In this document: positions 5,792 to 17,711 of the stretch, in pieces | Layout: every line of letters begins with the position of its first letter | Position numbering within the stretch: position 1 is the stretch's first letter | Source: Patescibacteria group bacterium | Lineage (GTDB): Bacteria > Patescibacteriota > Minisyncoccia > Minisyncoccales > 2-12-FULL-40-12 | Direction: 5' to 3' | Length of the DNA: 17,711 nt | NCBI GenBank assembly: GCA_038062035.1 | Contig: JBBTXV010000018.1 | Span: 5,621-23,331, forward strand | The notes under the pieces: model-generated | What the model saw: only the letters and a program-made list of their open reading frames with translations | Database searches by the model: none | Told to the model about the DNA's origin: nothing | Translations under genes and position numbers: made by a program

Positions 5792-6628
5792 ATGGAACTT
5801 GCTTCGTTAAGAGAAATAAAAAAGATACTCCAAAAAAACCGAACTTCTCCCTCAAAGGGCTTGGGTCAGAATTTTCTAATCAGTCGAACAGCTCTAAGTC
5901 AGTTAATTGGGGCTGCCGAGCTAAAAAGAGAAGATACCGTCCTGGAAATTGGGCCGGGAATCGGAGTTTTAACCTTAGAATTAGCCAAAAGAGTAAAAAA
6001 ATTAATTGCCGTAGAAAAAGACCGAAAAATGTGCCAAATTCTAAAAGAAACTTTGGAAGCTTATAAAAATTTGGAAATTATCAACGCTGATATTTTAAAA
6101 TTTAACCATAATAACTATAAACTAATAACTAAAAACTATAAACTGGTAGCAAATCTTCCTTATTACATTACATCACCTGTAATAAGAAAGTTCTTGGAAG
6201 TTGAAAAACCGCCTGATTTAATGGTTTTAATCGTGCAAAAAGAAGTCGCTCAAAGAATTTGCGCCAAGCCGCCCAAGCTCAATCTTCTGGCGGTCTCCGT
6301 TCAATTGTATGCCAATCCTAAGATTATCTCTTTTGTTCCGAAAAATTCTTTCTGGCCCAAACCCAAGGTTGATGGAGCAATCATTCAAATTACGCAAATA
6401 AAAAAAGATGGAAAAATAGATAATCAAACATTTTTTAAAATCGTGAAAGCAGGATTTTCCCAGCCAAGAAAACAAATTATTAACAACTTGTCTAAAAGGT
6501 TAAAATTAAATAAGATGCAAGCCGAATCTTGGTTAAAATCTTGTAAAATCGAACCTGAACAAAGGGCTGAAACATTAAGCTTATCTGATTGGATTCTGTT
6601 AACAGAAAAATTTGCTATAATAAAATAA
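5792..6628 (+). CDS. rsmA: 16S rRNA (adenine1518/1519-N6)-dimethyltransferase RsmA/KsgA
   Basis: The N-terminal GQNFL motif is present. The SAM-binding motif is LEIGPGIGVLT, the NLPYYITSPVI motif is present, and the C-terminus is helical. The stop TAA at 6626-6628 overlaps the next ATG. Confidence 0.9.
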   Translation: MELASLREIKKILQKNRTSPSKGLGQNFLISRTALSQLIGAAELKREDTVLEIGPGIGVLTLELAKRVKKLIAVEKDRKMCQILKETLEAYKNLEIINADILKFNHNNYKLITKNYKLVANLPYYITSPVIRKFLEVEKPPDLMVLIVQKEVAQRICAKPPKLNLLAVSVQLYANPKIISFVPKNSFWPKPKVDGAIIQITQIKKDGKIDNQTFFKIVKAGFSQPRKQIINNLSKRLKLNKMQAESWLKSCKIEPEQRAETLSLSDWILLTEKFAIIK

Positions 6629-9123
6629 TGCCAAAGAGAGCAATAGGATTTTTTATAATTTTCTCTACGTTTTTTTTATTATTTTCTCTTTTTTCCTCTT
6701 TTGATTTCGCTTTTGCTCAAGGAAGACAATTGGAAATTGATTATCCAAATGTTCCCGGAGCCCCTACTCCAAAAACAACCGCAACCTTATTACCCGATTA
6801 CGTTAAATACGTCTTTAATTTCGGGATAATAATTTTTGGCTTAATAGTTTTGGGCGTTTTAGTCGCAGGGGGAATTAAATATCTTTTATCCACGGGGAAA
6901 CCGGAAGCATTACAAGAAGCCAAGAATCAAATACTTGCCGCTTTTTTGGGAATAATCGTTTTACTTAGCTCTTATTTAATTCTCACCACTATTAATCCCC
7001 AGTTGGTAATTTTTAACATACCGGGACTAACTCAAATTACGGTCTTTCGCTGCACAACCGATGAAAGTTGTAATGGGCGTTTCGGGTGTGAAACGCCGGG
7101 CACTTGTCGTTGCGACCTTGGAATCTGTAGGGCAAAACTGGAACCAAGGGAAACAACTTTAATAGCTTACGAAATCCCCGTAGGGCAACTGATAGAAAAG
7201 GGTGTTCAGAACGAAAACAATATTAACGAGGTAACCATTTTACTTAACGAATTTGAAAAATTTTTGAAAAAGGAAATTCCCGTTGACCCGCCTTCTTATA
7301 GATTATCTGATTTAAGCAAGCATCTTGTGGGCCTAACCGAAGATTGTAGCTGTGATGCCACGGAGGGTATTTGCGCCACTCCTGAAGCCGGAGCCGGAGG
7401 AGTGGGCTGCTTTGGAAATCCTTGTAAAGATTCCGAGGAAGAAATCCAAAAAGCCGTGGATATTACCTCTCAAAAAATAAGAGAGCTTCAAGATTTTAAA
7501 AATGAAGTAAAAAAACAGTTTCAAATTTTTCTGCAAGAAGGAGAAAAATTTTTAAAAGCTAACGAAGAAATAAATGAGTGTATAGAAAATGGGAAACTTT
7601 TAACCTTGGCTGATTATTTAGCTACATCTCAATTTTTTACTGAGCAAGGATGGAAGACGCAACTCAAATCAAACCCATATTTCCCTAGCTCTGGAGGAGA
7701 CGATCTAACATTTTATTGCATAAAAGGAGGAACAATTTTTGACGCGCCGAGAACCAGCTCATTCAATATACCTGAGATTCCGTTAGAGTTAAACCTTGTA
7801 ATTCCAACCGAACCCTTGTTAAGTCCAGAACCATTATCTTGTCCGGCAATTCTCCCGTTAGGCGAAATGCTAGATAATATAACAATTGAATCATACACAG
7901 CCAACGAAGATCTGGAAAGCCTAATCGTTCTTATTGACTTACTCTCTAAAGAACTCCAAAAATTACTTGATTCTGTTTCAAGCTGCAGCAGGAAAGACGC
8001 ATGCAGCATTACTTGCGCAAAGGGACCAAATCCCTGTTTTCCTGAAAGACCCTGCGCTCAACCATGGGGAGTGGGATATCCATGTTTTCGCTGCAACCCT
8101 CTTTCCCTTCCGCCTTGTTTACTCTGTGGACCAGGCATGGGTCTTTCTCCAAATATTCAAGCCAGAGGGGGCGGATCATCTTGTCAGGGCAATCCTGATG
8201 CGCCATACCACGGCTCCCCTTGCCCTCGTGATGATATAGAAAAAACTTTACAAAAGATTAAACTCCTTGATAATGAAATTATTGAACTAATCCAAGAAAC
8301 AAAAAATGGATTTAATGCGAAGCCGTACATAATAGAGACTCCTAAGGAAAATATAAACTTGCTCCAAGGAATTAGAGGGTCAACGGCATTCTGTACCAGC
8401 GATGATATTAATAACCCGGATATTTTTTTGCTTAATTGCCTAGATGCTATAGGAAATGAAGGGCCGGACGGCAACATAATTGGCGACTGCGATCCTCAAA
8501 GCTTTTTTTGCTGTACCGCTGATAAAACAAAAGCGGGTTCAATAAGGCAATCTTTTCCAAGAGAAACACAAGAATTCAACTATTATACTGGCCCTCGTCT
8601 TGAAAACCCTTTTTCTCCTGCTGAAATTAGAAATAATGTTCCTTATTTTAGCCAAAAGGACCCTCTTTGGGCGGGAAGGTCTTATGGGTGCGGAGGGACA
8701 ACAATAAAATCCTCTGGTTGCGGCCCTACTTCTATGGCTATGGTGTTACGACATTACGGCAAAAATGTCGATCCTGTAATCACTGCTGAATGGTCATTAA
8801 GAAACAACTTTCGAGTTTGTAATGCCGGTACTGCCTGGAGTTTTTTCAACAGTATAGCTAAATCTTACGGTTTAAATGGGTGCAAACCTTTAAGCGTGGC
8901 GAATATTGACAATCTAATAGCTAAACTTTCCGATGGACCGATAATCGTTAGCGGCCGAGGAAATCCTCCGTATTCAAAAGGAGGACATTATATTGTTTTA
9001 ACCGGGGCAGATGAAAATTATGTTTATATAAATGATCCGGCACGACCTAAGTTAAAAAGAAAGCTAATTGACGAATTTAGAATAGCTGGGAGAGCAAGAT
9101 TCGCTTGCCAAGTTAAACAATAG
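6628..9123 (+). CDS. Secreted/membrane chimeric protein: Sec signal peptide, a VirB2/TrbC-type pilin-like TM hairpin, a ~520-aa Cys-rich ectodomain and a C-terminal C39-like (papain-fold) cysteine peptidase domain
   Basis: I prefer the start at ATG 6628 (MPKRAIGFFIIFSTFFLLFSLFSSFDFAFA|QG is a textbook signal peptide) over the tracked 6589 start, which overlaps rsmA. A conserved motif LEIDYPNVPGAPTPKTTATLLPDYVKYVF precedes two TM helices separated by STGKPEALQEAKNQ. Multiple Cys clusters follow. The C-terminus contains YFSQKDPLWAG...GCGPTSMAM...GGHYIVLTG. Confidence 0.75.
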   Translation: MPKRAIGFFIIFSTFFLLFSLFSSFDFAFAQGRQLEIDYPNVPGAPTPKTTATLLPDYVKYVFNFGIIIFGLIVLGVLVAGGIKYLLSTGKPEALQEAKNQILAAFLGIIVLLSSYLILTTINPQLVIFNIPGLTQITVFRCTTDESCNGRFGCETPGTCRCDLGICRAKLEPRETTLIAYEIPVGQLIEKGVQNENNINEVTILLNEFEKFLKKEIPVDPPSYRLSDLSKHLVGLTEDCSCDATEGICATPEAGAGGVGCFGNPCKDSEEEIQKAVDITSQKIRELQDFKNEVKKQFQIFLQEGEKFLKANEEINECIENGKLLTLADYLATSQFFTEQGWKTQLKSNPYFPSSGGDDLTFYCIKGGTIFDAPRTSSFNIPEIPLELNLVIPTEPLLSPEPLSCPAILPLGEMLDNITIESYTANEDLESLIVLIDLLSKELQKLLDSVSSCSRKDACSITCAKGPNPCFPERPCAQPWGVGYPCFRCNPLSLPPCLLCGPGMGLSPNIQARGGGSSCQGNPDAPYHGSPCPRDDIEKTLQKIKLLDNEIIELIQETKNGFNAKPYIIETPKENINLLQGIRGSTAFCTSDDINNPDIFLLNCLDAIGNEGPDGNIIGDCDPQSFFCCTADKTKAGSIRQSFPRETQEFNYYTGPRLENPFSPAEIRNNVPYFSQKDPLWAGRSYGCGGTTIKSSGCGPTSMAMVLRHYGKNVDPVITAEWSLRNNFRVCNAGTAWSFFNSIAKSYGLNGCKPLSVANIDNLIAKLSDGPIIVSGRGNPPYSKGGHYIVLTGADENYVYINDPARPKLKRKLIDEFRIAGRARFACQVKQ
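6731..7013 (+). other. VirB2/TrbC-like pilin hairpin module (conserved pre-helix motif plus two TM helices ending in TINPQL) within the 6628-9123 CDS
   Basis: The topology is signal peptide, short conserved motif, TM1, ~14-aa polar loop, TM2. It is paralogous to 12410-12700. Confidence 0.45.
8630..9075 (+). other. C39-like / papain-fold cysteine peptidase domain (Peptidase_C39_2-like) at the C-terminus of the 6628-9123 CDS
   Basis: The motifs are NVPYFSQKDPLWAGRSYGCGGTTIKSSGCGPTSMAMVLRHYG and later GGHYIVLTGADENYVYINDP. This is a putative Cys nucleophile followed by a His, in the order and spacing expected of YvpB-type C39-like domains. Confidence 0.55.
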
Positions 9124-9144: not shown

Positions 9145-12100
9145 ATGTTAAGAGATCTAAAAAAAAGTTTAATATTAAAATATCTAAAAAAAATTAAGTT
9201 TCTAAATACTTATTTTTTAGCTTTGGGAATAATAACAACGATTTTCTTAATTTCTGGTTTCGCTGGAATAAGCCCTCTTTCTGACAAAGTTAAAGTGTTG
9301 GGCCAAGGAATACCTTTGTTTTATTTCCCCAATTTTCCAATAAGATTGGCTTTTTTAGCTAATGAGATCACGACAACCAACGAAGAACTGATTATTCGTA
9401 GTGATGAGCTATCAAAATTCGTCAACGCTTTCGACTGCAAATACGCTCAATCGCAATGCGTGCAGACAACAAAGAAATTGCCAGGAGGAGGACAGCAATC
9501 CATTTGCGAGCCAGGACCAATAAAAGTATTTGGAAGGGTTAATCCTATACCACAAGGCACCACCAATGAAAAAGAAGTTCACTCCGAAGAAATACAATCT
9601 GCAATAAATGATTTAAATATTAAACTTGCCTCCTTGCAAACAACTTTAAGAGGGGAAGTCGAAATTGGCATAGAAAAACAGTTGAAAACTTTAAGGCCTG
9701 AAGACGCTCAAATTATCAGAGACAATTTAGAAAAACTTGATCGGTTAATGTCCGAAATGAGAAATCTAACTGAAAGAAACTCTTCACTACCTAATAAATG
9801 TTCAGTTCAAAGATGCACCCCGGAATGCGAATTAGGCCAAACTTTTACTGCTGAAGCCTGTGTTGGAGCTTCCGGCGAACAAAAACCAATAGAGCTTAAA
9901 TTTAAAGTCGGCGTAGGATTAGATAATTTGAATCTCGGCAGGTTGGGCATAGAAAACATCAATCTTGGCTTACCAGACAAGGTTAATATACCAACTCCCC
10001 AACTTCCCTCTCTCAGTTTCCGTATTCCAAATGCCACCTTAAACTGCCCGACCCAAAGACAACAGATCGTTTTTCATCCATCCACTCCTATCCTACCAGA
10101 CTTGCCAACCATAACTCTGAGTTGTCCTCAATATCAAAGCTATTCATCCTATCAATGCTCTTCTCCTCCCTCGCAAGGAGAAGAAGGGTTTATTGAATTT
10201 GAATGGTGGAATAAAACTTTTGAGCATTTGTCAGGAGAATGTCTTAAAGTTGCTAACAGCGACAGTAAAAGATTAAAAAATGAACAAGGGCAAATTGAAT
10301 ATCAAAAAGCAGTAGAGGGCTGCATGAGCCCAGAGAAGGTTGTCCCGACCACTATTAATGAGTGTGAAGCAAAATGGGTAAGAAAATGTTCTTTCCTTGA
10401 CTGTCGCTGGGAACTCTCCAATCCCCGAGAACAAGAAATCTGTGGTCAGATTGGTCGTTCACCAGACAAAACTCAAAAAGCGGTTAAATGGTGCCAGACA
10501 TTATACCAAGATGAAGGACAAACCCCTCCGGCTACCTGCTCTTCTGAAACAATTCTAACAACTCATCAAAAGTGCAACGAGATAAGAAATTCAGGTAGAG
10601 AAAACGTTCCGCTTTCTTGTAAACTTTTACCGTTATTCGCTGGACAATTAGAAGATCTGCCAGAAGGAACAGTTATAGGTCAAGGAGGAAATTGTCCATC
10701 TCAAAATATTGGGGATTTTCCTATACCAATGGCTGGTTGCGCAATAACCGCTCCATCTATCCCTAAAATAACTTTTCCAACAATAATTATCCCTGACATC
10801 CATCTTCCAACTTTCAGCTTACCTCCTCTCTTTCGGGTAAAATTACCAAATCTTATTTTTGAGGACTTAAATATAGGCGAAATCAACCTTTGCAACTTAG
10901 ACGACTGCAGCGCCCAATTTCCTTACTTAACTTTTAAACCTCCTTCTTTAAAAATCCCTCAAGTAAATGTTCCGCCTGTTACCCTGGAGATTCCAGGCGC
11001 CTCTCCAATAGATATCCAAATAGAACCAATTAATTTCCAGACCTTAAATTTTAACATTCCCCAGTTAATTAACTTGGGATCTTTGGTAACGCCCGAATTA
11101 AAGATACCGGAAATTCCCCTGCCCCAGCCAAGAATTCAATTCTCTTTTCTCGGAATTAATATTGATTTGCTAAATCTACTTCTTGGCCTTTTCAAAACGC
11201 CCCTCAATCTTAATCAGTGCGTGGCTTTGGACGCTAAGCTTGGAGTGCTCGATATTGTTTATCCTGACAAATATTTCCCTTGGCCAGCCTATCCCAAACC
11301 AGGAGAACTCAAATTTTGCAAAAAAGCAAGAGAATGGTGTCAAAGACAAAAAGGATCAATCCAGGAAATAACAACAAAAGCCGCTAGAATTCAAGAGCAA
11401 GTTAATAGCGTTTTTCAGAGCGAAATCCAAACAAAGCTTGATAAGACAGCTGATAGATTAAATCAAAAAATAACCAGAGAAGTTGAAAGAGAACTTGAGA
11501 AAGTTAAAAACGAAATAAGCAAGCAATTGCTCCAACATTTAGGGAAATATGCTCCTCAAAATGTTATACCTCCTTCAGCGCCGGTGCCTGGCGTCTGGGA
11601 AGTTAAAGGAGAACTTCCCTGTCAAGGAATACCGCCTTTAACCGTTTATATGCCTCCGGATTTACAAACAATTAGCATTGATCCTCAATCAATAAATGAA
11701 TTCCTTGAAAAAGAATTTGGAGAAACCTGGCCAACAGAAATTACTATCCGCTGGCCAAAAGATCTAAAAAAGTTCAAGCTGTCCTGTAACGAAAGTAATT
11801 GTGAGGCCTGTGAACAAAGAGGAAATGACGCTTGCCGAGGATTGTTAAGATGGGCGGACTGCCCGACCCTTGCCAATTGGGAAGATTACGCAAAATGCAA
11901 GTTGGATTACAGAATAAACAGCTGTAAAAACGAGTGCAAAAACTGCTTAAGCTATGACCTGCCGTCAGTTCCTTTGTGCGGATTAAGTTACAAAAAAGAA
12001 TTTACTAGAAGACTTCCTGGCCATCAACTATCTGTAACGACGCCAAGAGATCTTCTTTCGGGTTTAAGAAATGTTCGCGAGTGTATTAGTGGGCCACCCA

Positions 12101-12219
12101 AAGGAGGAAATCCTTGCCAGACAGAAGCAGGTCAAATCCAGGCTAATCTTAATAAGATTAAAAGATTATCGGAGGAGATGAAAAACGCTTCCCAAGAGAT
12201 AACTAATTTATTATACTAA
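9145..12219 (+). CDS. Large (1024 aa) signal-anchored, cysteine- and proline-rich extracytoplasmic protein with a coiled-coil segment; a putative surface or adhesin-like component
   Basis: There is an N-terminal TM anchor (FLALGIITTIFLISGFAGI) and >40 Cys. A coiled-coil stretch (EIQSAINDLNIKLASLQTTLRGEVEIGIEKQLKTL) is present. A long run of periodic xIPxxxLPxL motifs (IPKITFPTIIIPDIHLPTFSLPPLF...KIPEIPLPQPRIQF) shares the IPEIPL motif with the preceding CDS. Spacing to its neighbours is tight. Confidence 0.75.
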   Translation: MLRDLKKSLILKYLKKIKFLNTYFLALGIITTIFLISGFAGISPLSDKVKVLGQGIPLFYFPNFPIRLAFLANEITTTNEELIIRSDELSKFVNAFDCKYAQSQCVQTTKKLPGGGQQSICEPGPIKVFGRVNPIPQGTTNEKEVHSEEIQSAINDLNIKLASLQTTLRGEVEIGIEKQLKTLRPEDAQIIRDNLEKLDRLMSEMRNLTERNSSLPNKCSVQRCTPECELGQTFTAEACVGASGEQKPIELKFKVGVGLDNLNLGRLGIENINLGLPDKVNIPTPQLPSLSFRIPNATLNCPTQRQQIVFHPSTPILPDLPTITLSCPQYQSYSSYQCSSPPSQGEEGFIEFEWWNKTFEHLSGECLKVANSDSKRLKNEQGQIEYQKAVEGCMSPEKVVPTTINECEAKWVRKCSFLDCRWELSNPREQEICGQIGRSPDKTQKAVKWCQTLYQDEGQTPPATCSSETILTTHQKCNEIRNSGRENVPLSCKLLPLFAGQLEDLPEGTVIGQGGNCPSQNIGDFPIPMAGCAITAPSIPKITFPTIIIPDIHLPTFSLPPLFRVKLPNLIFEDLNIGEINLCNLDDCSAQFPYLTFKPPSLKIPQVNVPPVTLEIPGASPIDIQIEPINFQTLNFNIPQLINLGSLVTPELKIPEIPLPQPRIQFSFLGINIDLLNLLLGLFKTPLNLNQCVALDAKLGVLDIVYPDKYFPWPAYPKPGELKFCKKAREWCQRQKGSIQEITTKAARIQEQVNSVFQSEIQTKLDKTADRLNQKITREVERELEKVKNEISKQLLQHLGKYAPQNVIPPSAPVPGVWEVKGELPCQGIPPLTVYMPPDLQTISIDPQSINEFLEKEFGETWPTEITIRWPKDLKKFKLSCNESNCEACEQRGNDACRGLLRWADCPTLANWEDYAKCKLDYRINSCKNECKNCLSYDLPSVPLCGLSYKKEFTRRLPGHQLSVTTPRDLLSGLRNVRECISGPPKGGNPCQTEAGQIQANLNKIKRLSEEMKNASQEITNLLY

Positions 12220-12226
12220 GGTAATT

Positions 12227-13693
12227 ATGAAAGGTACGAGGTTTTTATTCGTTTTATTAATTATTGCTTTCTTGTTTTTTTTATCGGGTAATTTTGTCTC
12301 AGCTCAACAAGTATGCGATAAAGATCAAGATTGTCCAGGAGGTCAAAGCTGTATATCTGATCCTTGCAATACCGACCCTAACGCCCCAAAAATATGCGGT
12401 AAAGGCAGGGCTTTGGAAATCTGCTATCCTCAAATACCAGGAGTCGCTACACCAAAAACAACCGGTGAGCCCTTACCAGATTACATAAATTATATTTTCC
12501 GCTTCGCAATTGCTGCGATAGGCTTTGTTGTCCTTGGAGCTATGGTTTATGCCGGCGTCAGCTATTTTCTTTCATTCAACAACGCAGCGAAACTTCAAGA
12601 TGCCAAAGAAGGAATTTCTGCCGCTTTTTTGGGTGGCGTTATTTTGTTGGCGGCTTTTCTAATTTTTAATACGATAAATCCGCAATTAACTATTCTTGGA
12701 CCTCCAAAAGCTGATCTTCTGTGGGGGACAACTCAACCCGGAATATATATTTGTACTTATCCCGTAGATACAGGTTATTTAACTCAAATTAACCAAGACC
12801 TCAAAATCCAACCAACCTTCGGAGATCTAGGAGCAATTATTGATGCTTATACCAATGAAACGGATCCAAAAAGACAGGTTGAAGCAACTCAGGCATTACA
12901 AAGAATAATGTACAAGGACTCTTCGAATCTTTGCCAATTGCTCTTGAGCTCCACAAATCTCAGAACCCCGTTGCTGCCAAATTATACAATGTTCTCTATC
13001 CCAAAAGTATTCCCTGACCCGAATGATCCGCAAAAGCGCGTAGCAGAATTTCTTGAAGCGGTAATTTTGCATGAAAAAGATGATTTTAAGGGGGAACAAA
13101 AATTATACCCAATACCAAAAACGGTTGGAAGAAAACTTGTGCTCTTTGATCAAATCGACGGATTTAAAGCGGGCAACGGCTTAAATGACATCGGGGGAAG
13201 GGCTAAATCAATTACTCGTATAAAAAAGGCGGATGTGCCAGAAGCAAGCCCTCCAGGGATAACCTTATTCTCCTGCCCCAACTGGAATCAAAGCAAGGGC
13301 TTATGCCCAAAAGGATTGACTGGAACGCCTATCCCCCTTATTGATGCAAGTTTTGCCACTGACGGCGCTGACATTAAACTCTGGGGGAAAAGCGAACTTA
13401 AATCGGGCCAAGAATCTTTAGCTGAAAATGTCCGCTCTATTAGAATCACGCCATTGGGCAGTTTTCTTGCTATAGTATATGAAAAAGACGATGCAAAAGG
13501 AAATGGGGGAATTTTATATTCTGACGCTGCTGATATTAGGGGAAATAAATTGGGGCTTAAAATGTGTGGAACAAACTGTCCTTCGGGAATACTTCAATCC
13601 ACCCCTTTCTTCTTTATTCTTGACAGGATAAGAGGTATTGATTGTACCCCCTGTATAAATTCAATGACAGTTATTAAGGGAATAAAATTATGA
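12227..13693 (+). CDS. Secreted/membrane protein: signal peptide, a Cys-rich N-terminal knot, a VirB2/TrbC-like pilin hairpin (a paralog of the module in 6628-9123) and a ~330-aa ectodomain
   Basis: The signal peptide is MKGTRFLFVLLIIAFLFFLSGNFVSA|QQ, followed by CDKDQDCPGGQSCISDPC. The segment LEICYPQIPGVATPKTTGEPLPDYINYIF...AAFLGGVILLAAFLIFNTINPQL aligns with the 6731-7013 module. The stop overlaps the next start (ATGA at 13690-13693). Confidence 0.8.
   Translation: MKGTRFLFVLLIIAFLFFLSGNFVSAQQVCDKDQDCPGGQSCISDPCNTDPNAPKICGKGRALEICYPQIPGVATPKTTGEPLPDYINYIFRFAIAAIGFVVLGAMVYAGVSYFLSFNNAAKLQDAKEGISAAFLGGVILLAAFLIFNTINPQLTILGPPKADLLWGTTQPGIYICTYPVDTGYLTQINQDLKIQPTFGDLGAIIDAYTNETDPKRQVEATQALQRIMYKDSSNLCQLLLSSTNLRTPLLPNYTMFSIPKVFPDPNDPQKRVAEFLEAVILHEKDDFKGEQKLYPIPKTVGRKLVLFDQIDGFKAGNGLNDIGGRAKSITRIKKADVPEASPPGITLFSCPNWNQSKGLCPKGLTGTPIPLIDASFATDGADIKLWGKSELKSGQESLAENVRSIRITPLGSFLAIVYEKDDAKGNGGILYSDAADIRGNKLGLKMCGTNCPSGILQSTPFFFILDRIRGIDCTPCINSMTVIKGIKL
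12410..12700 (+). other. Second copy of the pilin-like hairpin module
   Basis: The shared pattern with the first copy is LEIxYPxxPGxxTPKTTxxxLPDYxxYxFxF - TM1 - loop - AAFLGxxxLLxxxLIxxTINPQL. Confidence 0.45.
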
Positions 13694-15144
13694 TTCAATT
13701 CTTGGGAGATGCCATTTTAGGTGCCATCTTTCTTGTGCCGGCGATTTTAACCGCTCTACTTATAAGTCTTAGCCAGGCTGCAGCTTTTTTAATGGGGATT
13801 ATCTTAGATTGGATTATTAGCCCTAACTTTACCTCTTATAGCTACACCAAACCCTGCAATCCCCCTGACAGAATAGTCGGAGATTGTAATCCAGTTGTCG
13901 GAATAGGATTAAATATCACTCAAGGCTTTGTAAACTTACTCTTAGTAGTAGTTCTGGTTTATGTTGCTATTTCCATAGCTTTAAGATTAGGAGGGGAAAC
14001 TAATGCGAAAAAGATATTCGTCAATCTAATCATCGTTGCTTTATTGGTGAATTTTGCTCCGGTTCTCATTGGCTTGATCGTGGATGCTACTAATATTGTG
14101 ATGAACTTTTTCTTTTCTTCTATCCAAGGGGGAGCAGCTGGAATATTAAATCAGGGCGCAACAATTTTTGATACGGTAAAAGGCGCTGTACTAGCCTCGG
14201 GAGCAGGATTCAAAGATAGACTGGGATTATTAGCAGCTGGAGCTTTCACAGTAAGCCTCAACCTCTTTATTGCTTTTATCTTTTTGATTTTTGCCGGGCT
14301 CTTCGTTTTCAGATATATTGCCATCTGGATCTTAGTAATCTTATCCCCAATCGCCCTTGTCCTTTGGGTCTTACCCGGCAAGCCAAGACAGTTCTGGAAT
14401 ATGTGGTGGAATAATCTTATCCAATGGTCAATTATTGGAATCCCAATTTCTTTCTTTCTATATTTAGCGCTTGCAAGTTTCAGCGCCATTAATAGATCTT
14501 TCCTAGGACGAATAGAACAATCTTCGGGTATTTTTCCGGCCGCTGATTTAACCTTCGTTGACCGACTCATTCCCTATGCTGTAGTAAGTGCTTTTCTTGG
14601 TATGGGATTTTTAGTGAGCTTGGCAACCTCAGCCATGGGCGCTAACGCCATTATTGCCGGAGGTATGGCAAGCGGTAAATTTACACGCGATAGAGCTTGG
14701 GGGGGAACAAAAAGGGCTAGTAGGGCCACATGGCGAGGAACTAGAAACGCAGGAAGCCAAGTTATGGGTCGTTATGCGGCGGGAAGACAAGCCGGCCAAG
14801 GAAGAATCGGAGCTTTTGGTCGAGCAGTAGGGGGAGCAACTGGAGCAGGAGTACGCCAAGTAGGAAGCACAGTAGCAGGCTGGGCAAGCGTCAGAAGCCA
14901 ATATAGAACAGCGAGACAAGCTGGCGTTGGAAAAATACGGTCAGTATTTATGACAGCACCAGCCAGATCAGCTGCTGGTGCTGCTAAGGGTGTAACTTCT
15001 TTCCTTGGCGGTATGGCAGGCGCATGGGTACAAGGAGCTACCAAGAAGAAGGGTAAAGCGAAAGGAAAAGCATTCTGTAGTACTTGTGGAGCTACTGCTC
15101 CATCGGGATCGAATTTCTGTCAAAGTTGTGGATCGCCAATTTAA
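13690..15144 (+). CDS. Polytopic VirB6/TrbL-like membrane protein with a Gly/Ala/Arg-rich low-complexity tail and a C-terminal zinc ribbon
   Basis: There are ~8 hydrophobic helices across aa 1-330, including YIAIWILVILSPIALVLWVLPG. One extracytoplasmic loop contains a Cys pair (KPCNPPDRIVGDCNP). The tail (aa ~330-455) is rich in G/A/R/T with repeated RxAG and GAxG. The final 22 aa read CSTCGATAPSGSNFCQSCG (CxxC-x10-CxxC). The GC-rich DNA at 14640-15060 matches the tail. Confidence 0.75.
   Translation: MIQFLGDAILGAIFLVPAILTALLISLSQAAAFLMGIILDWIISPNFTSYSYTKPCNPPDRIVGDCNPVVGIGLNITQGFVNLLLVVVLVYVAISIALRLGGETNAKKIFVNLIIVALLVNFAPVLIGLIVDATNIVMNFFFSSIQGGAAGILNQGATIFDTVKGAVLASGAGFKDRLGLLAAGAFTVSLNLFIAFIFLIFAGLFVFRYIAIWILVILSPIALVLWVLPGKPRQFWNMWWNNLIQWSIIGIPISFFLYLALASFSAINRSFLGRIEQSSGIFPAADLTFVDRLIPYAVVSAFLGMGFLVSLATSAMGANAIIAGGMASGKFTRDRAWGGTKRASRATWRGTRNAGSQVMGRYAAGRQAGQGRIGAFGRAVGGATGAGVRQVGSTVAGWASVRSQYRTARQAGVGKIRSVFMTAPARSAAGAAKGVTSFLGGMAGAWVQGATKKKGKAKGKAFCSTCGATAPSGSNFCQSCGSPI
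15073..15141 (+). other. C-terminal zinc-ribbon (CxxC-x10-CxxC) of the VirB6-like protein
   Basis: FCSTCGATAPSGSNFCQSCGSPI is a canonical short zinc-ribbon spacing. Confidence 0.6.
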
Positions 15145-15170: not shown

Positions 15171-15605
15171 ATGATGGAAGATTTTAAATCTGAGGTTGAA
15201 AAAATAAAAGAGCAGTACCCGGAATTTTTTGAAAAGGTTGATCCCGAACTCTTGAAGTTTATTACCTCTGAAAAATTTTTATTTGATGTCGCTCAAATCT
15301 GTTTGGATAATGGAATAACAGACGAGGAGCAAACGGAAAAAATTACTTATAGGGTCGCCTTGGCTTTATTCGGAGAGGTGCCCAAAGAAAATTTAGCCCA
15401 GATTCTTGAACTCGGAGCCGGATTGGATCCTCAAACTGCTAAGGCAATGCATCTTGAGTTCAACCGACTTATTTTTTCTCAACTGAAAGAACCGAAAAAA
15501 AGACCGGAGGTTAAAATGGAATTTTCTCCGGGCTTATTAGAAGAGACCGAAATAGAAAGCGAAAAACCTAAAAGAAAAGATATCTATCACGAGCAGATAC
15601 AATAA
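15171..15605 (+). CDS. Small acidic hypothetical protein (144 aa), probably cytoplasmic
   Basis: It is an intact ORF with a clean start and stop, no TM helix and no motif I recognise. A hairpin terminator follows it. Confidence 0.55.
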   Translation: MMEDFKSEVEKIKEQYPEFFEKVDPELLKFITSEKFLFDVAQICLDNGITDEEQTEKITYRVALALFGEVPKENLAQILELGAGLDPQTAKAMHLEFNRLIFSQLKEPKKRPEVKMEFSPGLLEETEIESEKPKRKDIYHEQIQ

Positions 15606-15619
15606 ACAAAAATAAAGAA

Positions 15620-15645
15620 GGAACGGTAAAACCGTTCCTTTTTTC
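15620..15645. terminator. Bidirectional rho-independent terminator between convergent genes
   Basis: The hairpin is GGAACGG-TAAAA-CCGTTCC (7-bp perfect stem) followed by TTTTTT on the plus strand. The minus strand reads the same stem followed by TTCTTTATTTTT. Confidence 0.65.
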
Positions 15646-15672
15646 AATGAATTCAATGAATTCAACGAATCA
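15642..15672. repeat. Short tandem repeat, about 3 copies of TTCAATGAA / TTCAACGAA
   Basis: The sequence ttcaatgaattcaatgaattcaacgaatcaacc was read directly. It overlaps the stop and last codons of the minus-strand SPFH gene. Confidence 0.4.
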
Positions 15673-16954
15673 ACCAGTAAATCATTGAACCAACCATGGA
15701 AAATATCGCCAGAAGACCTAAGGCCTTCTTACCCAAACTAACATCCTCTTCCGGGTTCGGTATTATCGCCGGGTATCTTGACTTTACTTTTCTTACTGGC
15801 GGAACTTGATCTTCAAGATGCTCTTGCGAGCTTGCTCCTCCTCCTGAAGACTCGTCTTTCTTCTCCGCCGCCTCGGATGATTTTTGCTCTGGCGTCACTC
15901 CTTCACCAACCGGTGGCATTCCTTTATAAGCAGCAATGATCTTCAAGATACCAGCGAGGACTCCGCCATCGCCTCCTTCAGCTCCCGGAGTTTCGATCCT
16001 CAGATAGGATTTTGACTCCATCGAAAGCTTACTCATTGTGCTATCTATTATAACTTTATGCCTCCGGTAGAACTCTTCGGGGCTTGCTTGAAGCTCCTTC
16101 TTAACTTGCTCTGGGGATTTACCTGCACTAGCCACAGATGCAATAACTGTCCCCATTATTTCTTCGGCCCTACCAGCCGCTATTAACTCTTGCTTTCTTT
16201 TAGCTGAAGCCGCCCTCTGATAATCTTCGGACAGATCAACCTCTTGAATCTCAATGCCCTTATCTGCTAATTTCATCCCCCACTTTTGTAAGGTTTCTTC
16301 AATCACCTTAGCTCCAGTTAAAAGACCCTCTTGGTTTTCTGCCCAAAGAGATGCGCCTTTAAGCTTAAGAAGCGTATCAAGGTCACGACTAGTGACAATT
16401 GAACGCATCTCTGCCTTTATTTTGGCGAGAACATCTTCAATTGGGGTCGGAGGAGCAATAAATAAAAAAGAATACGGATTGTCGATCCTTAACGTGATTA
16501 AAACCAAAACGTCCACTGGGATTCTTTCTGGCGGTGCGGTTTCAACAGCCGTAAGCTTAATCGCGTAAACCGCTGATTTCAAGAGAACGTGCCTCATCCT
16601 TAGTTCCTCATGAAACTCAGGGTTTGTATCACCGCTTTCTCTTAAACGAATATCGGTCCAGCGGTTCTTGTACTGGTGGATCGCATGAAATGGCCAAATG
16701 CCATACAAATACAATCCTCCAACAATACGCAAGCCCGTCCAAACTTCGTCTCTCTCCCTACGATCGGGGTCTTCTTCGTCAGTTAAAATCTTCCAACTAT
16801 GATCCATCCAGTGCTTTTCCCACGAAAAAAGGATCTTTTTGAACTTTCCGAAAGACACTACTGCCTTTGCGGTTCCTTCGTTAACCGTGGTAAAACATCT
16901 AATAAACCAGAAAAAAAACGCTAACGATATTCCGAGCGTTATCAGCCATTCCAT
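15662..16954 (-). CDS. SPFH / band-7 (stomatin-prohibitin-flotillin-HflK/C) domain membrane protein with both N- and C-terminal TM segments
   Basis: The N-terminal TM is followed by VNEGTAKAVVSFGKF, which is the typical SPFH domain entry. A long helical Ala/Glu/Lys-rich segment follows (YQRAASAKRKQELIAAGRAEE). The C-terminal hydrophobic segment is GLLAIFSMVGSMIYWLI. The RBS is GAGGTG, 7 nt before the ATG. Confidence 0.75.
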   Translation of the reverse strand: MEWLITLGISLAFFFWFIRCFTTVNEGTAKAVVSFGKFKKILFSWEKHWMDHSWKILTDEEDPDRRERDEVWTGLRIVGGLYLYGIWPFHAIHQYKNRWTDIRLRESGDTNPEFHEELRMRHVLLKSAVYAIKLTAVETAPPERIPVDVLVLITLRIDNPYSFLFIAPPTPIEDVLAKIKAEMRSIVTSRDLDTLLKLKGASLWAENQEGLLTGAKVIEETLQKWGMKLADKGIEIQEVDLSEDYQRAASAKRKQELIAAGRAEEIMGTVIASVASAGKSPEQVKKELQASPEEFYRRHKVIIDSTMSKLSMESKSYLRIETPGAEGGDGGVLAGILKIIAAYKGMPPVGEGVTPEQKSSEAAEKKDESSGGGASSQEHLEDQVPPVRKVKSRYPAIIPNPEEDVSLGKKALGLLAIFSMVGSMIYWLIR

Positions 16955-17107: not shown

Positions 17108-17368
17108 CTAATCTCTCTGGACCACACAAATGTCGTAATCAATTTTTCTCTCCTTACCATCTATCACAGTTTGAATCAATTCGGTCGAAGGATTTGCATC
17201 GCGCAATAAAATCTTCTCCGTTTTGCATCTTAGACAAATAAGGCGAATAAATAGACTGTCTTCAGTGATCTTTATTCTTCCCCCTATGCATTCTCGATGA
17301 AACATCTCTAAATCTTTAAAGCTAAATTCTTCATCTTTACTCTTTTTCCTCACTTCGATCGTGAACAT
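17108..17368 (-). CDS. Small hypothetical protein (~86 aa from the ATG at 17366-17368; the track's 89-aa version starts at a GTG inside the SD) with 5 Cys including a CLRC pair
   Basis: GAGGTG lies 6 nt upstream of the ATG (MFTIEV...), so the GTG at 17375-17377 is more likely part of the RBS. There is no TM helix. It is driven by the duplicated promoter cassette. Confidence 0.5.
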   Translation of the reverse strand: MFTIEVRKKSKDEEFSFKDLEMFHRECIGGRIKITEDSLFIRLICLRCKTEKILLRDANPSTELIQTVIDGKERKIDYDICVVQRD

Positions 17369-17521: not shown

Positions 17522-17711
17522 ATGAATTTTCAGATTCCCCAATTTATTGAACAAGAAGCAAAAATTTTAGGGCCTTTTACTTTCAAACAAACTCTTTGGG
17601 TAGTCGGGGTCGGGATAATTATATTTTTTCTTTATTATTCTTTAGCCAAAACAAACCCTGTTCTTTTTATCATTATAACGGTATTTTTGGCTGGGACTGG
17701 CTCAGCTTTTG
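17522..17711 (+). CDS. PrgI-family (VirB3-like) small membrane protein, 3'-partial; it runs off the window
   Basis: MNFQIPQFIEQEAKILGPFTFKQTLWVVGVGIIIFFLYYSLAKTNPVLFIIITVFLAGTG matches the conserved PrgI N-terminus (a short amphipathic start, GPFTFKQ, then two TM helices). In monoderm conjugation systems PrgI precedes the VirB4-like ATPase. Confidence 0.55.
   Translation, partial: MNFQIPQFIEQEAKILGPFTFKQTLWVVGVGIIIFFLYYSLAKTNPVLFIIITVFLAGTGSAF

What the first reader, a model, noticed from the sequence alone, without database searches (positions are those of the whole stretch)
13690..15144. VirB6-like channel protein carrying a Gly/Ala/Arg low-complexity tail and a terminal zinc ribbon; a local GC spike
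The polytopic core resembles TrbL/VirB6. Its ~125-aa tail (RxAG/GAxG repeats, many Arg, almost no acidic residues) is encoded by a GC-rich island at 14640-15060 inside an otherwise AT-rich genome. This island spawns spurious antisense ORFs. The protein ends in CSTCGATAPSGSNFCQSCG. An Arg-rich flexible tail plus a zinc ribbon on the cytoplasmic side of a secretion channel could bind nucleic acid or recruit an ATPase. I do not know of a zinc-ribbon fusion in VirB6 family members.
Basis: partly seen in the sequence, partly recalled or inferred. Interest (0 to 1): 0.68.

Follow-up and report, generated by a model that had tools for sequence, protein, structure and literature searches.

The report
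VirB6 channel protein with swappable zinc-ribbon tail
This gene encodes the central membrane subunit (VirB6) of a type IV secretion machine in an ultra-small groundwater bacterium; its very basic tail ending in a zinc ribbon is real and recurs in relatives, and it is one of two unrelated tail versions that recombination has swapped many times between related genomes.

Summary

The GC spike is real but comes from amino-acid composition. Tail GC3 is 0.31, the genome value; only codon positions 1 and 2 are GC-rich. It is not a foreign island, and the antisense ORFs follow from the lack of stop codons.

The gene lies in a Patescibacteria type IV secretion cluster: pilin-like genes upstream and the start of a PrgI/VirB3 gene at the contig end. 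Syntenic relatives carry VirB4 next.

The tail is not a strain-specific accretion. About 25 homologs carry it, with four conserved blocks. It is a minority form, though: most homologs have an unrelated tail of about 350 aa. The two tails reassort on near-identical cores, always breaking right after 'STSA(Y/M)GA'. I infer at least 24 switches. A matching subtype of an acidic 145-aa downstream protein travels with each tail.

Function is inferred only: most likely a cytoplasmic polycationic docking arm. I rate it a new variant of a known kind, of moderate interest.

The parts
13690..15144 (+). Gene for the VirB6-like T4SS subunit, 484 aa. The start codon overlaps the stop codon of the upstream pilin-like gene.
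13690..14640 (+). VirB6 core, aa 1-317: seven long helices, pLDDT mostly above 85. It contains the family's most conserved motif, ALLVNFAPV..GLIVDA.NI. It has no Sec signal peptide, unlike 111 of 147 homologs.
14641..15072 (+). Polycationic Gly/Ala/Arg/Lys tail, aa 318-461 (net +25, pI 12). This is the cause of the local GC rise. Conserved block 1 is a juxtamembrane helix (aa 318-355) continuing from the last core helix. Blocks 2 and 3 are 'Y...R..G..R..A.G' and 'YW.RR'. Block 4 is 'AA.KG..SA..D.A.A' (helix 427-450). A Lys-rich linker (aa 452-460) follows.
14785..14936 (+). Weak internal duplication inside the tail ('RQAGQGRI' and 'RQAGVGKI', 129 nt apart). It is not a tandem array.
15076..15141 (+). 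C-terminal Cys4 zinc ribbon, aa 463-484 (CSTC-x10-CQSC).
   Evidence: Pfam Zn_Ribbon_1 E 1.5e-5; the same CxxC...CxxC ending in about 25 homologs; tail-only search hits generic Zn_Ribbon_1/DZR proteins
14629..15044 (-). Two overlapping antisense ORFs (96 and 90 aa). They are by-products of stop-codon depletion in the Gly/Ala/Arg-coding stretch, not genes.
15171..15605 (+). p145: an acidic 144-aa protein (pI 4.76, net -11), 27 nt downstream. It has a helical N-domain, a disordered linker and a conserved C-terminal 'D.Y.E' motif (KKDxYREPIE in most homologs). Its subtype co-segregates with the zinc-ribbon tail.
15614..15644 (.). Hairpin followed by a T run, between the convergent p145 and SPFH genes. 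It is the likely end of the pilin-VirB6-p145 transcription unit.
   Evidence: I3
15662..16954 (-). SPFH/Band 7 membrane protein, a conserved neighbour in this cassette.
17522..17710 (+). First 63 codons of a PrgI/VirB3-like gene, cut by the contig end. In syntenic loci a TraC-like gene and VirB4 follow.
12227..13693 (+). Upstream 488-aa protein with a T4SS-pilin-like N-terminal segment (below the Pfam threshold).
6589..9123 (+). 844-aa protein: T4SS-pilin-like N-terminus plus a C39-like peptidase domain. It is the first gene of the cluster.

Best explanation
Shown: this is the VirB6 subunit, the central channel and pilus platform, of the chromosomal type IV secretion system of a Patescibacteria (CPR) bacterium.

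Shown: its last 167 residues are a conserved module. It consists of a basic helix continuing from the last core helix, about 100 residues of largely disordered Gly/Ala/Arg/Lys sequence with four conserved blocks, a Lys-rich linker, and one Cys4 zinc ribbon.

Shown: the local GC rise is simply what coding for Gly, Ala and Arg produces in an AT-rich genome.

Shown: the module is one of two non-homologous tail cassettes. The zinc-ribbon form is the minority; an unrelated tail of about 350 aa is the majority. Recombination exchanges them at a fixed junction just after the last core helix, and a matching subtype of the acidic downstream protein p145 moves with each tail.

Inferred mechanism: the tail lies in the cytoplasm. 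If VirB6 is a pentamer, as in R388, five such polycationic arms hang below the channel, each tipped by a zinc ribbon. They would act as a docking or recruitment device for a polyanionic partner. I favour the co-inherited acidic p145 adaptor and/or the VirB4 ATPase. Swapping the cassette would change what the machine recruits.
For: Identity:
- Homologs hit Pfam TrbL weakly.
- Synteny is pilin-like genes, VirB6, p145, SPFH, PrgI, TraC-like, VirB4.
- The organism is a Patescibacteria MAG from groundwater, and a T4SS of this type has been described for the phylum (PMC12102498).

Composition: tail GC3 is 0.31, equal to the genome; expected GC 0.543 against 0.528 observed.

Conservation: 23-25 zinc-ribbon forms, with conserved blocks in the tail.

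Cassette exchange:
- Cores are 96-100% identical in protein while the tails are unrelated.
- DNA identity stops at the same codon in two independent pairs.
- Core alleles A and B each occur with both tails, a four-gamete pattern.
- 18 of 36 short or zinc-ribbon forms have a long form as their nearest core relative.
- A Fitch count gives at least 24 changes on the core tree.
- There is one copy per genome in all 80 species genomes retrieved.
- The two tails are not homologous: hhalign probability 1.9%.

p145 linkage: it lies immediately downstream (+19 to +52 nt) in every zinc-ribbon locus. p145 subtype scores split by tail type. Charges are opposite, +25 against -11.

Cytoplasmic location: the family-averaged loop charges fit an N-out, five-span, C-in model (loop 228-242 +1.4, loop 279-292 -1.45, juxtamembrane stretch +5.5). 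111 of 147 homologs have a Sec signal peptide, which puts the N-terminus outside. From my own knowledge (Jakubowski et al. 2004), this is the topology determined experimentally for A. tumefaciens VirB6.
Against: - No direct test of topology, zinc binding or any interaction was possible.
- In the R388 cryo-EM structure only helices alpha1 and alpha2 of VirB6 cross the membrane and the rest sits in the periplasm (PMC9259494). Homology alone therefore does not place the C-terminus in the cytoplasm.
- If helix 109-144 also spans the membrane, the tail would be outside.
- Co-segregation of p145 with the tail could reflect physical linkage only.
- VirB4 is not on this contig.
- The AF2 model of the tail has low confidence (pLDDT below 50). 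The alignment used was dominated by long-tail sequences, so 'disordered' is not firmly established.
Confidence: 0.55

Rival explanations
1. The tail is a direct nucleic-acid-binding arm. The polycationic region and zinc ribbon would grip DNA or RNA at the cytoplasmic mouth of the channel, acting as a built-in substrate receptor in a system whose cluster lacks a coupling protein and a relaxase.
For: - Net charge +25 with a single acidic residue.
- Zinc ribbons often contact nucleic acids (general knowledge).
- In conjugative systems DNA passes through VirB6 (PMC12624023).
- Most Patescibacteria T4SS clusters lack a relaxase, and their coupling-protein genes are rarely near virB4 (PMC12102498).
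- About 20 of 152 long-tail homologs end in duplicated PRGRPGVGG motifs, whose RGRP core resembles an AT-hook and which are enriched over shuffled sequences. This suggests the alternative tail may also touch DNA.
Against: - The zinc ribbon is of the generic Zn_Ribbon_1/DZR type, found in many proteins with no known link to DNA.
- No nucleic-acid-binding family matched.
- The phylum's T4SS is thought not to be conjugative (PMC12102498).
- Nothing here tests binding.
Confidence: 0.22
2. The tail is outside the cell. As in the R388 structure, most of VirB6 would sit beyond the membrane, and the basic zinc-ribbon tail would project toward the cell wall or the host surface.
For: - R388 VirB6 has only two membrane-inserted helices.
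- If all six hydrophobic helices after a cleaved signal peptide span the membrane, the C-terminus is outside.
- Frequent allele swapping resembles the behaviour of surface-exposed, host-interacting molecules.
Against: - That topology violates the positive-inside rule at every informative loop, and it requires export of a +25 tail.
- Cys4 zinc ribbons are typically cytoplasmic (general knowledge).
- The co-inherited partner candidate p145 has no signal peptide or hydrophobic segment.
Confidence: 0.12
3. The tail has no specific ligand. It would be a topology anchor or spacer, with the zinc ribbon helping oligomer assembly or stability. On this view the two tail forms are nearly neutral alternatives carried along by recombination in a mosaic locus.
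For: - All forms, long and short, share a basic juxtamembrane stretch.
- Some short forms lack the zinc ribbon altogether (13 of 36).
- The locus is a mosaic: flanks are 89-94% identical while the M23 peptidase/RsmA/VirB6 segment is 78%.
Against: - Four sequence blocks and all four Cys are conserved across cores that are only 35-50% identical.
- p145 subtypes match the tail type.
- Both forms persist across many lineages.
Confidence: 0.1
4. The feature is an artefact or a foreign insertion: a frameshifted or misassembled 3' end, or a horizontally acquired GC-rich island.
For: A local GC rise of about 15 percentage points; the window's own genome has only one assembly lineage.
Against: - GC3 and codon choice within Gly, Ala and Arg match the rest of the window.
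- The reading frame is intact.
- The same tail architecture occurs in independent samples and studies.
Confidence: 0.01

Closest known systems
VirB6/TrbL family, e.g. TrwI of plasmid R388 (PDB 7O3V) and A. tumefaciens VirB6
   Different: Sequence similarity is too low for the Pfam TrbL threshold. It carries a 167-aa C-terminal module that canonical VirB6 proteins of about 300 aa lack. The host is a monoderm-like, ultra-small bacterium, and the system is chromosomal and probably not conjugative.
Patescibacteria T4SS (MPF-FATA-like; Quinonero-Coronel et al. 2025, PMC12102498; Wang et al. 2023 for Southlakia)
   Same: The same gene set: VirB4, a TrsD/TraC-like gene, PrgI/VirB3, VirB6 and VirB2-like pilin arrays. 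The same phylum.
   Different: That work catalogues VirB6 homologs but does not mention their C-terminal tails, a zinc ribbon (the word 'zinc' occurs 0 times) or the two-cassette pattern.
'Extended VirB6' proteins (Rickettsiales; MPF-FA systems such as Tn916 Orf15 and TcpH)
   Same: A VirB6 core followed by a C-proximal hydrophilic, partly unstructured extension whose function is unknown (PMC12857230).
   Different: Those extensions are 400-600 aa long and are not reported to end in a zinc ribbon. Here the extension comes in two interchangeable, non-homologous versions; the zinc-ribbon one is short and extremely basic.
Zn_Ribbon_1 / DZR (PF13240, PF12773) modules
   Same: A CxxC-x10-CxxCG knuckle pair. 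The best non-family matches of the tail are repeats of this module.
   Different: Here it is a single copy at the extreme C-terminus of a secretion-channel subunit. Three homologs have a double ribbon (P0005, P0007, P0080).

Membership tests
VirB6/TrbL | Fold of solved VirB6: seven long helices, five or more of them hydrophobic | tested here: met
VirB6/TrbL | Pfam TrbL (PF04610) at the gathering threshold | tested here: not met
   The query gives no hit even at E 10. Homologs reach 18.7-23.4 bits against a cut-off of 25.9. Many homologs carry a precomputed PF19590 hit. The local Pfam copy did not return that family, so its name could not be checked; from memory it is TrbL_3.
VirB6/TrbL | Encoded with VirB4 and VirB3 in one cluster | tested here: inconclusive
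   The window ends 63 codons into a PrgI/VirB3-like gene, so VirB4 is not seen here. In syntenic loci L005, L006 and L089 the PrgI, TraC-like and VirB4 genes follow.
VirB6/TrbL | Pentameric assembly at the centre of the inner-membrane complex | not testable with these tools
   Only single-chain prediction was available.
Extended VirB6 | Large C-proximal hydrophilic domain after the hydrophobic core | tested here: met
   A 167-aa hydrophilic tail in the query; tails of about 350 aa in 149 of 185 relatives.
Zn_Ribbon_1 (PF13240) | Profile match at the curated cut-off, with four Cys arranged as two CxxC knuckles | tested here: met
   25.0 bits against a cut-off of 25, E 1.5e-5, aa 462-483. The four Cys are conserved in 23-25 homologs.
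Zn_Ribbon_1 (PF13240) | Binds a zinc ion | not testable with these tools
   This needs metal analysis of purified protein.
Patescibacteria T4SS (MPF-FATA-like) | VirB2-like T4SS_pilin genes near the cluster | tested here: inconclusive
   In the window, PF18895 scores 24.3 and 18.5 bits, below the cut-off of 26.6. The syntenic locus L089 has unmarked precomputed PF18895 hits (E 1e-5 or better) on two neighbouring genes.
AT-hook or other nucleic-acid-binding tail | R-G-R-P core or another recognised DNA/RNA-binding motif in the query tail | tested here: not met
   No zinc-ribbon or short tail contains RGRP or [RK]GRP (0 of 25 and 0 of 18). The motif occurs only in some long-tail homologs.

The most novel reading that the evidence does not exclude
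The VirB6 tail and its p145 partner form a two-allele specificity cassette of a host-interaction machine; T4SS genes of this type were shown to be essential for epibiotic growth in one cultured relative (PMC12102498). Two unrelated cytoplasmic tails would be kept side by side across Patescibacteria by selection and moved between lineages by recombination at a fixed junction. One is polycationic with a zinc ribbon; the other is about 350 aa long and sometimes ends in an AT-hook-like motif. Each would recruit a different cargo or adaptor, so a tail swap re-programmes what the secretion system handles.
Probability: 0.3. Interest if true: 0.72.

Novelty: new variant of a known kind. Interest (0 to 1): 0.52.

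Why it matters
[quoted passage not shown] The role of C-terminal extensions on 'extended' VirB6 proteins is also an open question (PMC12857230).

A tail that exists in two interchangeable, non-homologous versions, each with a matched downstream protein, gives a concrete handle. It points to the cytoplasmic end of VirB6 as a place where partner or cargo choice may be made. It also offers natural swap variants on near-identical cores for comparison.

The practical lesson is plainer. A GC spike in an AT-rich genome can be fully explained by Gly/Ala/Arg coding and should not be read as a foreign island.

Tried and rejected
- A profile of the whole family (A2) searched against PDB sequences gave only spurious coiled-coil hits to the long tails, and no VirB6. 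The fold comparison was needed.
- A single-sequence search with the tail alone against 1.84 billion representatives found essentially only generic zinc-ribbon proteins; the full tail matched only in P0007 and P0132.
- A profile of the basic tails (A4) searched against the 5.8-billion-protein set returned nothing, probably because low-complexity words swamped the 8000-candidate list. The spread of the tail outside the listed homologs therefore remains unknown.
- I looked for a silent zinc-ribbon cassette in a long-tail locus (six-frame translation of L006 13300-15200) and found none, so a programmed in-genome switch is not supported.
- I tested whether the two forms are paralogs in one genome. 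All 80 loci retrieved from species genomes lie in different assemblies, with no second hit per locus. The paralog explanation is rejected, with the caveat that most of these genomes are incomplete MAGs.
- hhalign between zinc-ribbon tails and long tails aligned only the first 17 residues, with probability 1.9%. Common origin of the tails is rejected.
- Tandem-repeat search in the tail DNA found nothing.
- PF19590, precomputed on many homologs, could not be named or reproduced with the local Pfam copy.
Full report
**What is there**

The ORF at 13690-15144 (+) is intact and encodes 484 aa. Its ATG overlaps the stop codon of the upstream gene, and the next gene starts 27 nt after its own stop.

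Residues 318-461 contain 30 Ala, 29 Gly, 16 Arg, 10 Lys, one Asp and no Glu (pI 12, net +25). The protein ends CSTCGATAPSGSNFCQSCGSPI, and four of its six cysteines sit in the last 22 residues. Pfam Zn_Ribbon_1 matches aa 462-483 at E 1.5e-5 with 25.0 bits, exactly the curated cut-off.

The 'repeats' are compositional. Tandem Repeats Finder reports nothing. There is only a weak duplication of a 'Y..ARQAG.G(R/K)I' motif 43 residues apart.

**The GC spike**

GC reaches 0.53-0.575 across 14600-14999, against about 0.38-0.40 elsewhere. By codon position, the tail has GC1/GC2/GC3 of 0.59/0.69/0.31. The other genes of the window average 0.47/0.37/0.32.

Synonymous codon choice for Gly, Ala and Arg is the same as in the rest of the window. 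The GC expected from the tail's amino-acid composition with local codon usage is 0.543, against 0.528 observed.

The spike is therefore the direct result of coding for Gly (GGN), Ala (GCN) and Arg. It is not a compositional island of foreign origin. The antisense ORFs (14629-14919 and 14772-15044, minus strand) follow from stop-codon depletion: 1-2 stops per 140 codons in those frames, against 7-26 per 317 in the core.

**What the protein is**

Sequence profiles do not identify the core. The query has no Pfam TrbL hit. There is only a weak NCBIfam hit to a pLS20 conjugation membrane protein (E 0.005). Homologs score below threshold on TrbL (18.7-23.4 bits against 25.9).

The context agrees:
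- Upstream lie two proteins with T4SS-pilin-like N-termini (one fused to a C39-like peptidase) and a 1024-aa Cys-rich protein.
- Downstream lie a 144-aa acidic protein (here called p145), an SPFH protein on the other strand, and, cut by the contig end, the first 63 codons of a PrgI/VirB3-like gene.
- In syntenic loci from relatives, PrgI is followed by a TraC-like gene and VirB4.

The contig is a groundwater Patescibacteria MAG. A T4SS with this gene set has been described for the phylum, without any mention of VirB6 tails or zinc (PMC12102498).

**Is the tail conserved?**

Among 115 aligned homologs, 26 have a short basic tail (mean 160 aa, 5% acidic residues, net +18 to +43). Seventeen of those end in CxxC...CxxC; an eighteenth (P0119) has a variant spacing. 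The other 89 have a tail of about 350 aa with 13% acidic residues and, with two exceptions, no zinc ribbon.

Among 75 complete genes found in GTDB species genomes, only three carry the zinc ribbon (L008, L033, L056).

The short tails align with each other and show four conserved blocks:
1. A juxtamembrane 'A..II.G.K.G.K..GK' stretch with Trp.
2. 'Y...R..G..R..A.G'.
3. 'YW.RR'.
4. 'AA.KG..SA..D.A.A...AA.K.K.KKKG.K' directly before the ribbon.

So the tail is neither strain-specific nor hypervariable; it is a conserved minority module. The ribbon itself is of the generic Zn_Ribbon_1/DZR kind. A tail-only search of 1.84 billion representatives returned almost only multi-ribbon proteins matching the last 35 residues.

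**The unexpected part: two interchangeable tails**

A tree of the core alone interleaves zinc-ribbon and long-tail forms as sister pairs.

P0084 (zinc ribbon) and P0095 (long tail) are 96-100% identical in protein over the core, then become unrelated immediately after 'GFSTSA(Y/M)GA'. P0119 and P0086 behave the same way.

At the DNA level, identity stops at the same codon in both pairs. It runs at about 90-93% through the core and drops to about 40% afterwards.

The genes occupy the same locus. L006, L007 and L089 all lie directly downstream of RsmA.

All 80 loci recovered from species genomes are in different assemblies, with no second copy in any locus. The two forms are therefore alternative alleles, not paralogs.

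Core allele A occurs with both tails (L088 and L089), and so does core allele B (L007 and L006). A and B cores differ by about 24% at the DNA level. This four-gamete pattern requires recombination between core and tail.

More broadly:
- 18 of 36 short or zinc-ribbon forms have a long form as their closest core relative, in six cases at 88-97% identity.
- P0016's core is 96% identical to a long form, but its tail is 57% identical to the tails of proteins whose cores are only 44-45% identical to it.
- A Fitch count on the core tree needs at least 24 tail-type changes among 185 sequences. That tree is a simple neighbour-joining tree, so the number is an estimate.
- hhalign finds no homology between the two tail types beyond the first 17 residues (probability 1.9%).

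**The cassette includes p145**

In every zinc-ribbon locus, p145 starts 19-52 nt after the VirB6 stop, followed by SPFH on the other strand. In long-tail loci, SPFH usually comes first and p145 sits directly upstream of PrgI.

p145 also has two subtypes that follow the tail type rather than the core. Zinc-ribbon loci score 83-167 bits with the window's p145 and at most 44 bits with the long-locus type. Long-tail loci mostly score 64-108 bits with the long-locus type (a few only 46-47) and at most 64 bits with the window type; one locus, L062, scores equally with both.

p145 is acidic (pI 4.76, net -11). It has a confident helical N-domain and a disordered linker, and a conserved C-terminal motif, KKDxYREPIE in most homologs. 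It has no informative structural match.

**Where is the tail?**

No topology predictor was available. I averaged loop charges over the family:
- loop 99-108: +1.75
- loop 228-242: +1.4
- loop 279-292: -1.45
- the 38 juxtamembrane residues: +5.5

In addition, 111 of 147 homologs start with a Sec-type signal peptide with an AxA site. The query and about 20 others start directly at helix 1. The N-terminus is therefore outside.

A five-span model fits the charges and puts the tail in the cytoplasm. In that model helix 109-144 belongs to the external domain. From my own knowledge (Jakubowski et al. 2004), this is also the topology determined experimentally for A. tumefaciens VirB6.

A six-span model would put the tail outside but violates the positive-inside rule at every informative loop.

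One caveat remains. In the R388 cryo-EM structure only alpha1 and alpha2 of VirB6 are in the membrane (PMC9259494), so homology does not settle where the C-terminus lies. I put the cytoplasmic location at about 80%.

**How it most likely works**

Shown: the VirB6 fold, the T4SS context, a conserved polycationic tail with a Cys4 ribbon, cassette exchange at a fixed junction, and co-inheritance with a p145 subtype.

Inferred: five such tails per VirB6 pentamer would form a positively charged fringe at the cytoplasmic entrance, each tipped by a small zinc-stabilised knob. This would dock a polyanionic partner. I favour p145 and/or the VirB4 ATPase, because of the linkage, the matched subtypes and the opposite charges.

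Direct nucleic-acid binding is the main rival. It gains some support from AT-hook-like PRGRPGVGG motifs at the ends of about 20 long tails, and from the scarcity of relaxase and nearby coupling-protein genes in these systems. None of this could be tested here.

**Comparison with what is known, and novelty**

VirB6, the Patescibacteria T4SS and 'extended VirB6' proteins with C-proximal hydrophilic domains of unknown function are all known (PMC12857230).

Three full-text searches found no description of a zinc-ribbon-tipped VirB6. The Patescibacteria T4SS paper (PMC12102498) does not mention VirB6 tails or a two-cassette pattern; no search targeted the cassette pattern itself. Public annotation calls these proteins 'hypothetical' or 'zinc ribbon domain-containing'.

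I class the finding as a new variant of a known kind. The fusion on its own is a modest novelty. The reassorting tail/p145 cassette is the more interesting result and deserves proper phylogenetic and experimental follow-up.

Noticed in passing
Long-tail homologs, e.g. P0010, P0029, P0037, P0086, L010, L069 (C-termini): About 20 of 152 long-tail VirB6 homologs end in a duplicated short motif at about -25 and -9 from the C-terminus. The motif is either P[RK]GRPG[VI]GG, whose RGRP core resembles an AT-hook, or P[RDT]TGx[GE]G. Shuffled tails give 0.1-3 such proteins.
   Followed up: partly
window 15171-15605 (p145) and its homologs P0192-P0210: An acidic 144-aa protein with a helical N-domain, a disordered Pro/Glu-rich linker and a conserved extreme C-terminal motif (KKDxYREPIE in most homologs; D, Y and E invariant). 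The long-locus subtype example examined (L006) has the same motif. It has no Pfam family and no informative fold match.
   Followed up: partly
window 13690-13720 (N-terminus of the VirB6 gene): The query, its nearest relatives (P0002, P0004, P0032) and about 20 others lack the Sec-type signal peptide that 111 of 147 homologs carry. They start directly at helix 1, and no upstream in-frame start is possible.
   Followed up: partly
window 6589-9123: An 844-aa protein that joins a T4SS-pilin-like N-terminal segment, a Cys-rich middle and a C39-like cysteine peptidase domain (Peptidase_C39_2, E 3.5e-22).
   Followed up: no
window 9145-12219: A 1024-aa, very Cys-rich protein with an N-terminal hydrophobic segment and no family match. 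Proteins of similar size (961 and 1058 aa) sit at the same position in the syntenic loci L003 and L005; their homology was not checked.
   Followed up: no
window 105-2465: A 786-aa Glu/Lys-rich coiled-coil protein with an internal duplication (ATPQEKKELETQRWA.EEKR... appears twice) and a hydrophobic segment near aa 545. A gene of similar size (710 aa) sits at the same position, just upstream of the DksA/TraR gene, in the distant relative L089 (L006 has a 745-aa gene there, cut by the locus end); homology was not checked.
   Followed up: no
L089 vs L006 (whole loci): The locus is a mosaic. The ComM and p145-VirB4 flanks are 93-94% identical in DNA, but the M23 peptidase/RsmA/VirB6 segment is only 78% identical. 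This points to import of a divergent segment.
   Followed up: partly
window 15614-15644: A 14-nt perfect-stem hairpin followed by a T run, between the convergent p145 and SPFH genes. It looks like a bidirectional terminator.
   Followed up: no
window 17108-17368 (-): A small ORF (86-89 aa) carrying a CxxC (CLRC) and a nearby His/Cys pair (HREC), between the SPFH and PrgI genes. Its function is unknown.
   Followed up: no
window about 14956-14958 (codon 423 of the VirB6 gene): The window has Ala where the database representative P0001 has Thr (…FMT[A/T]PAR…). This is a single-residue difference between two assemblies of the same sample.
   Followed up: no
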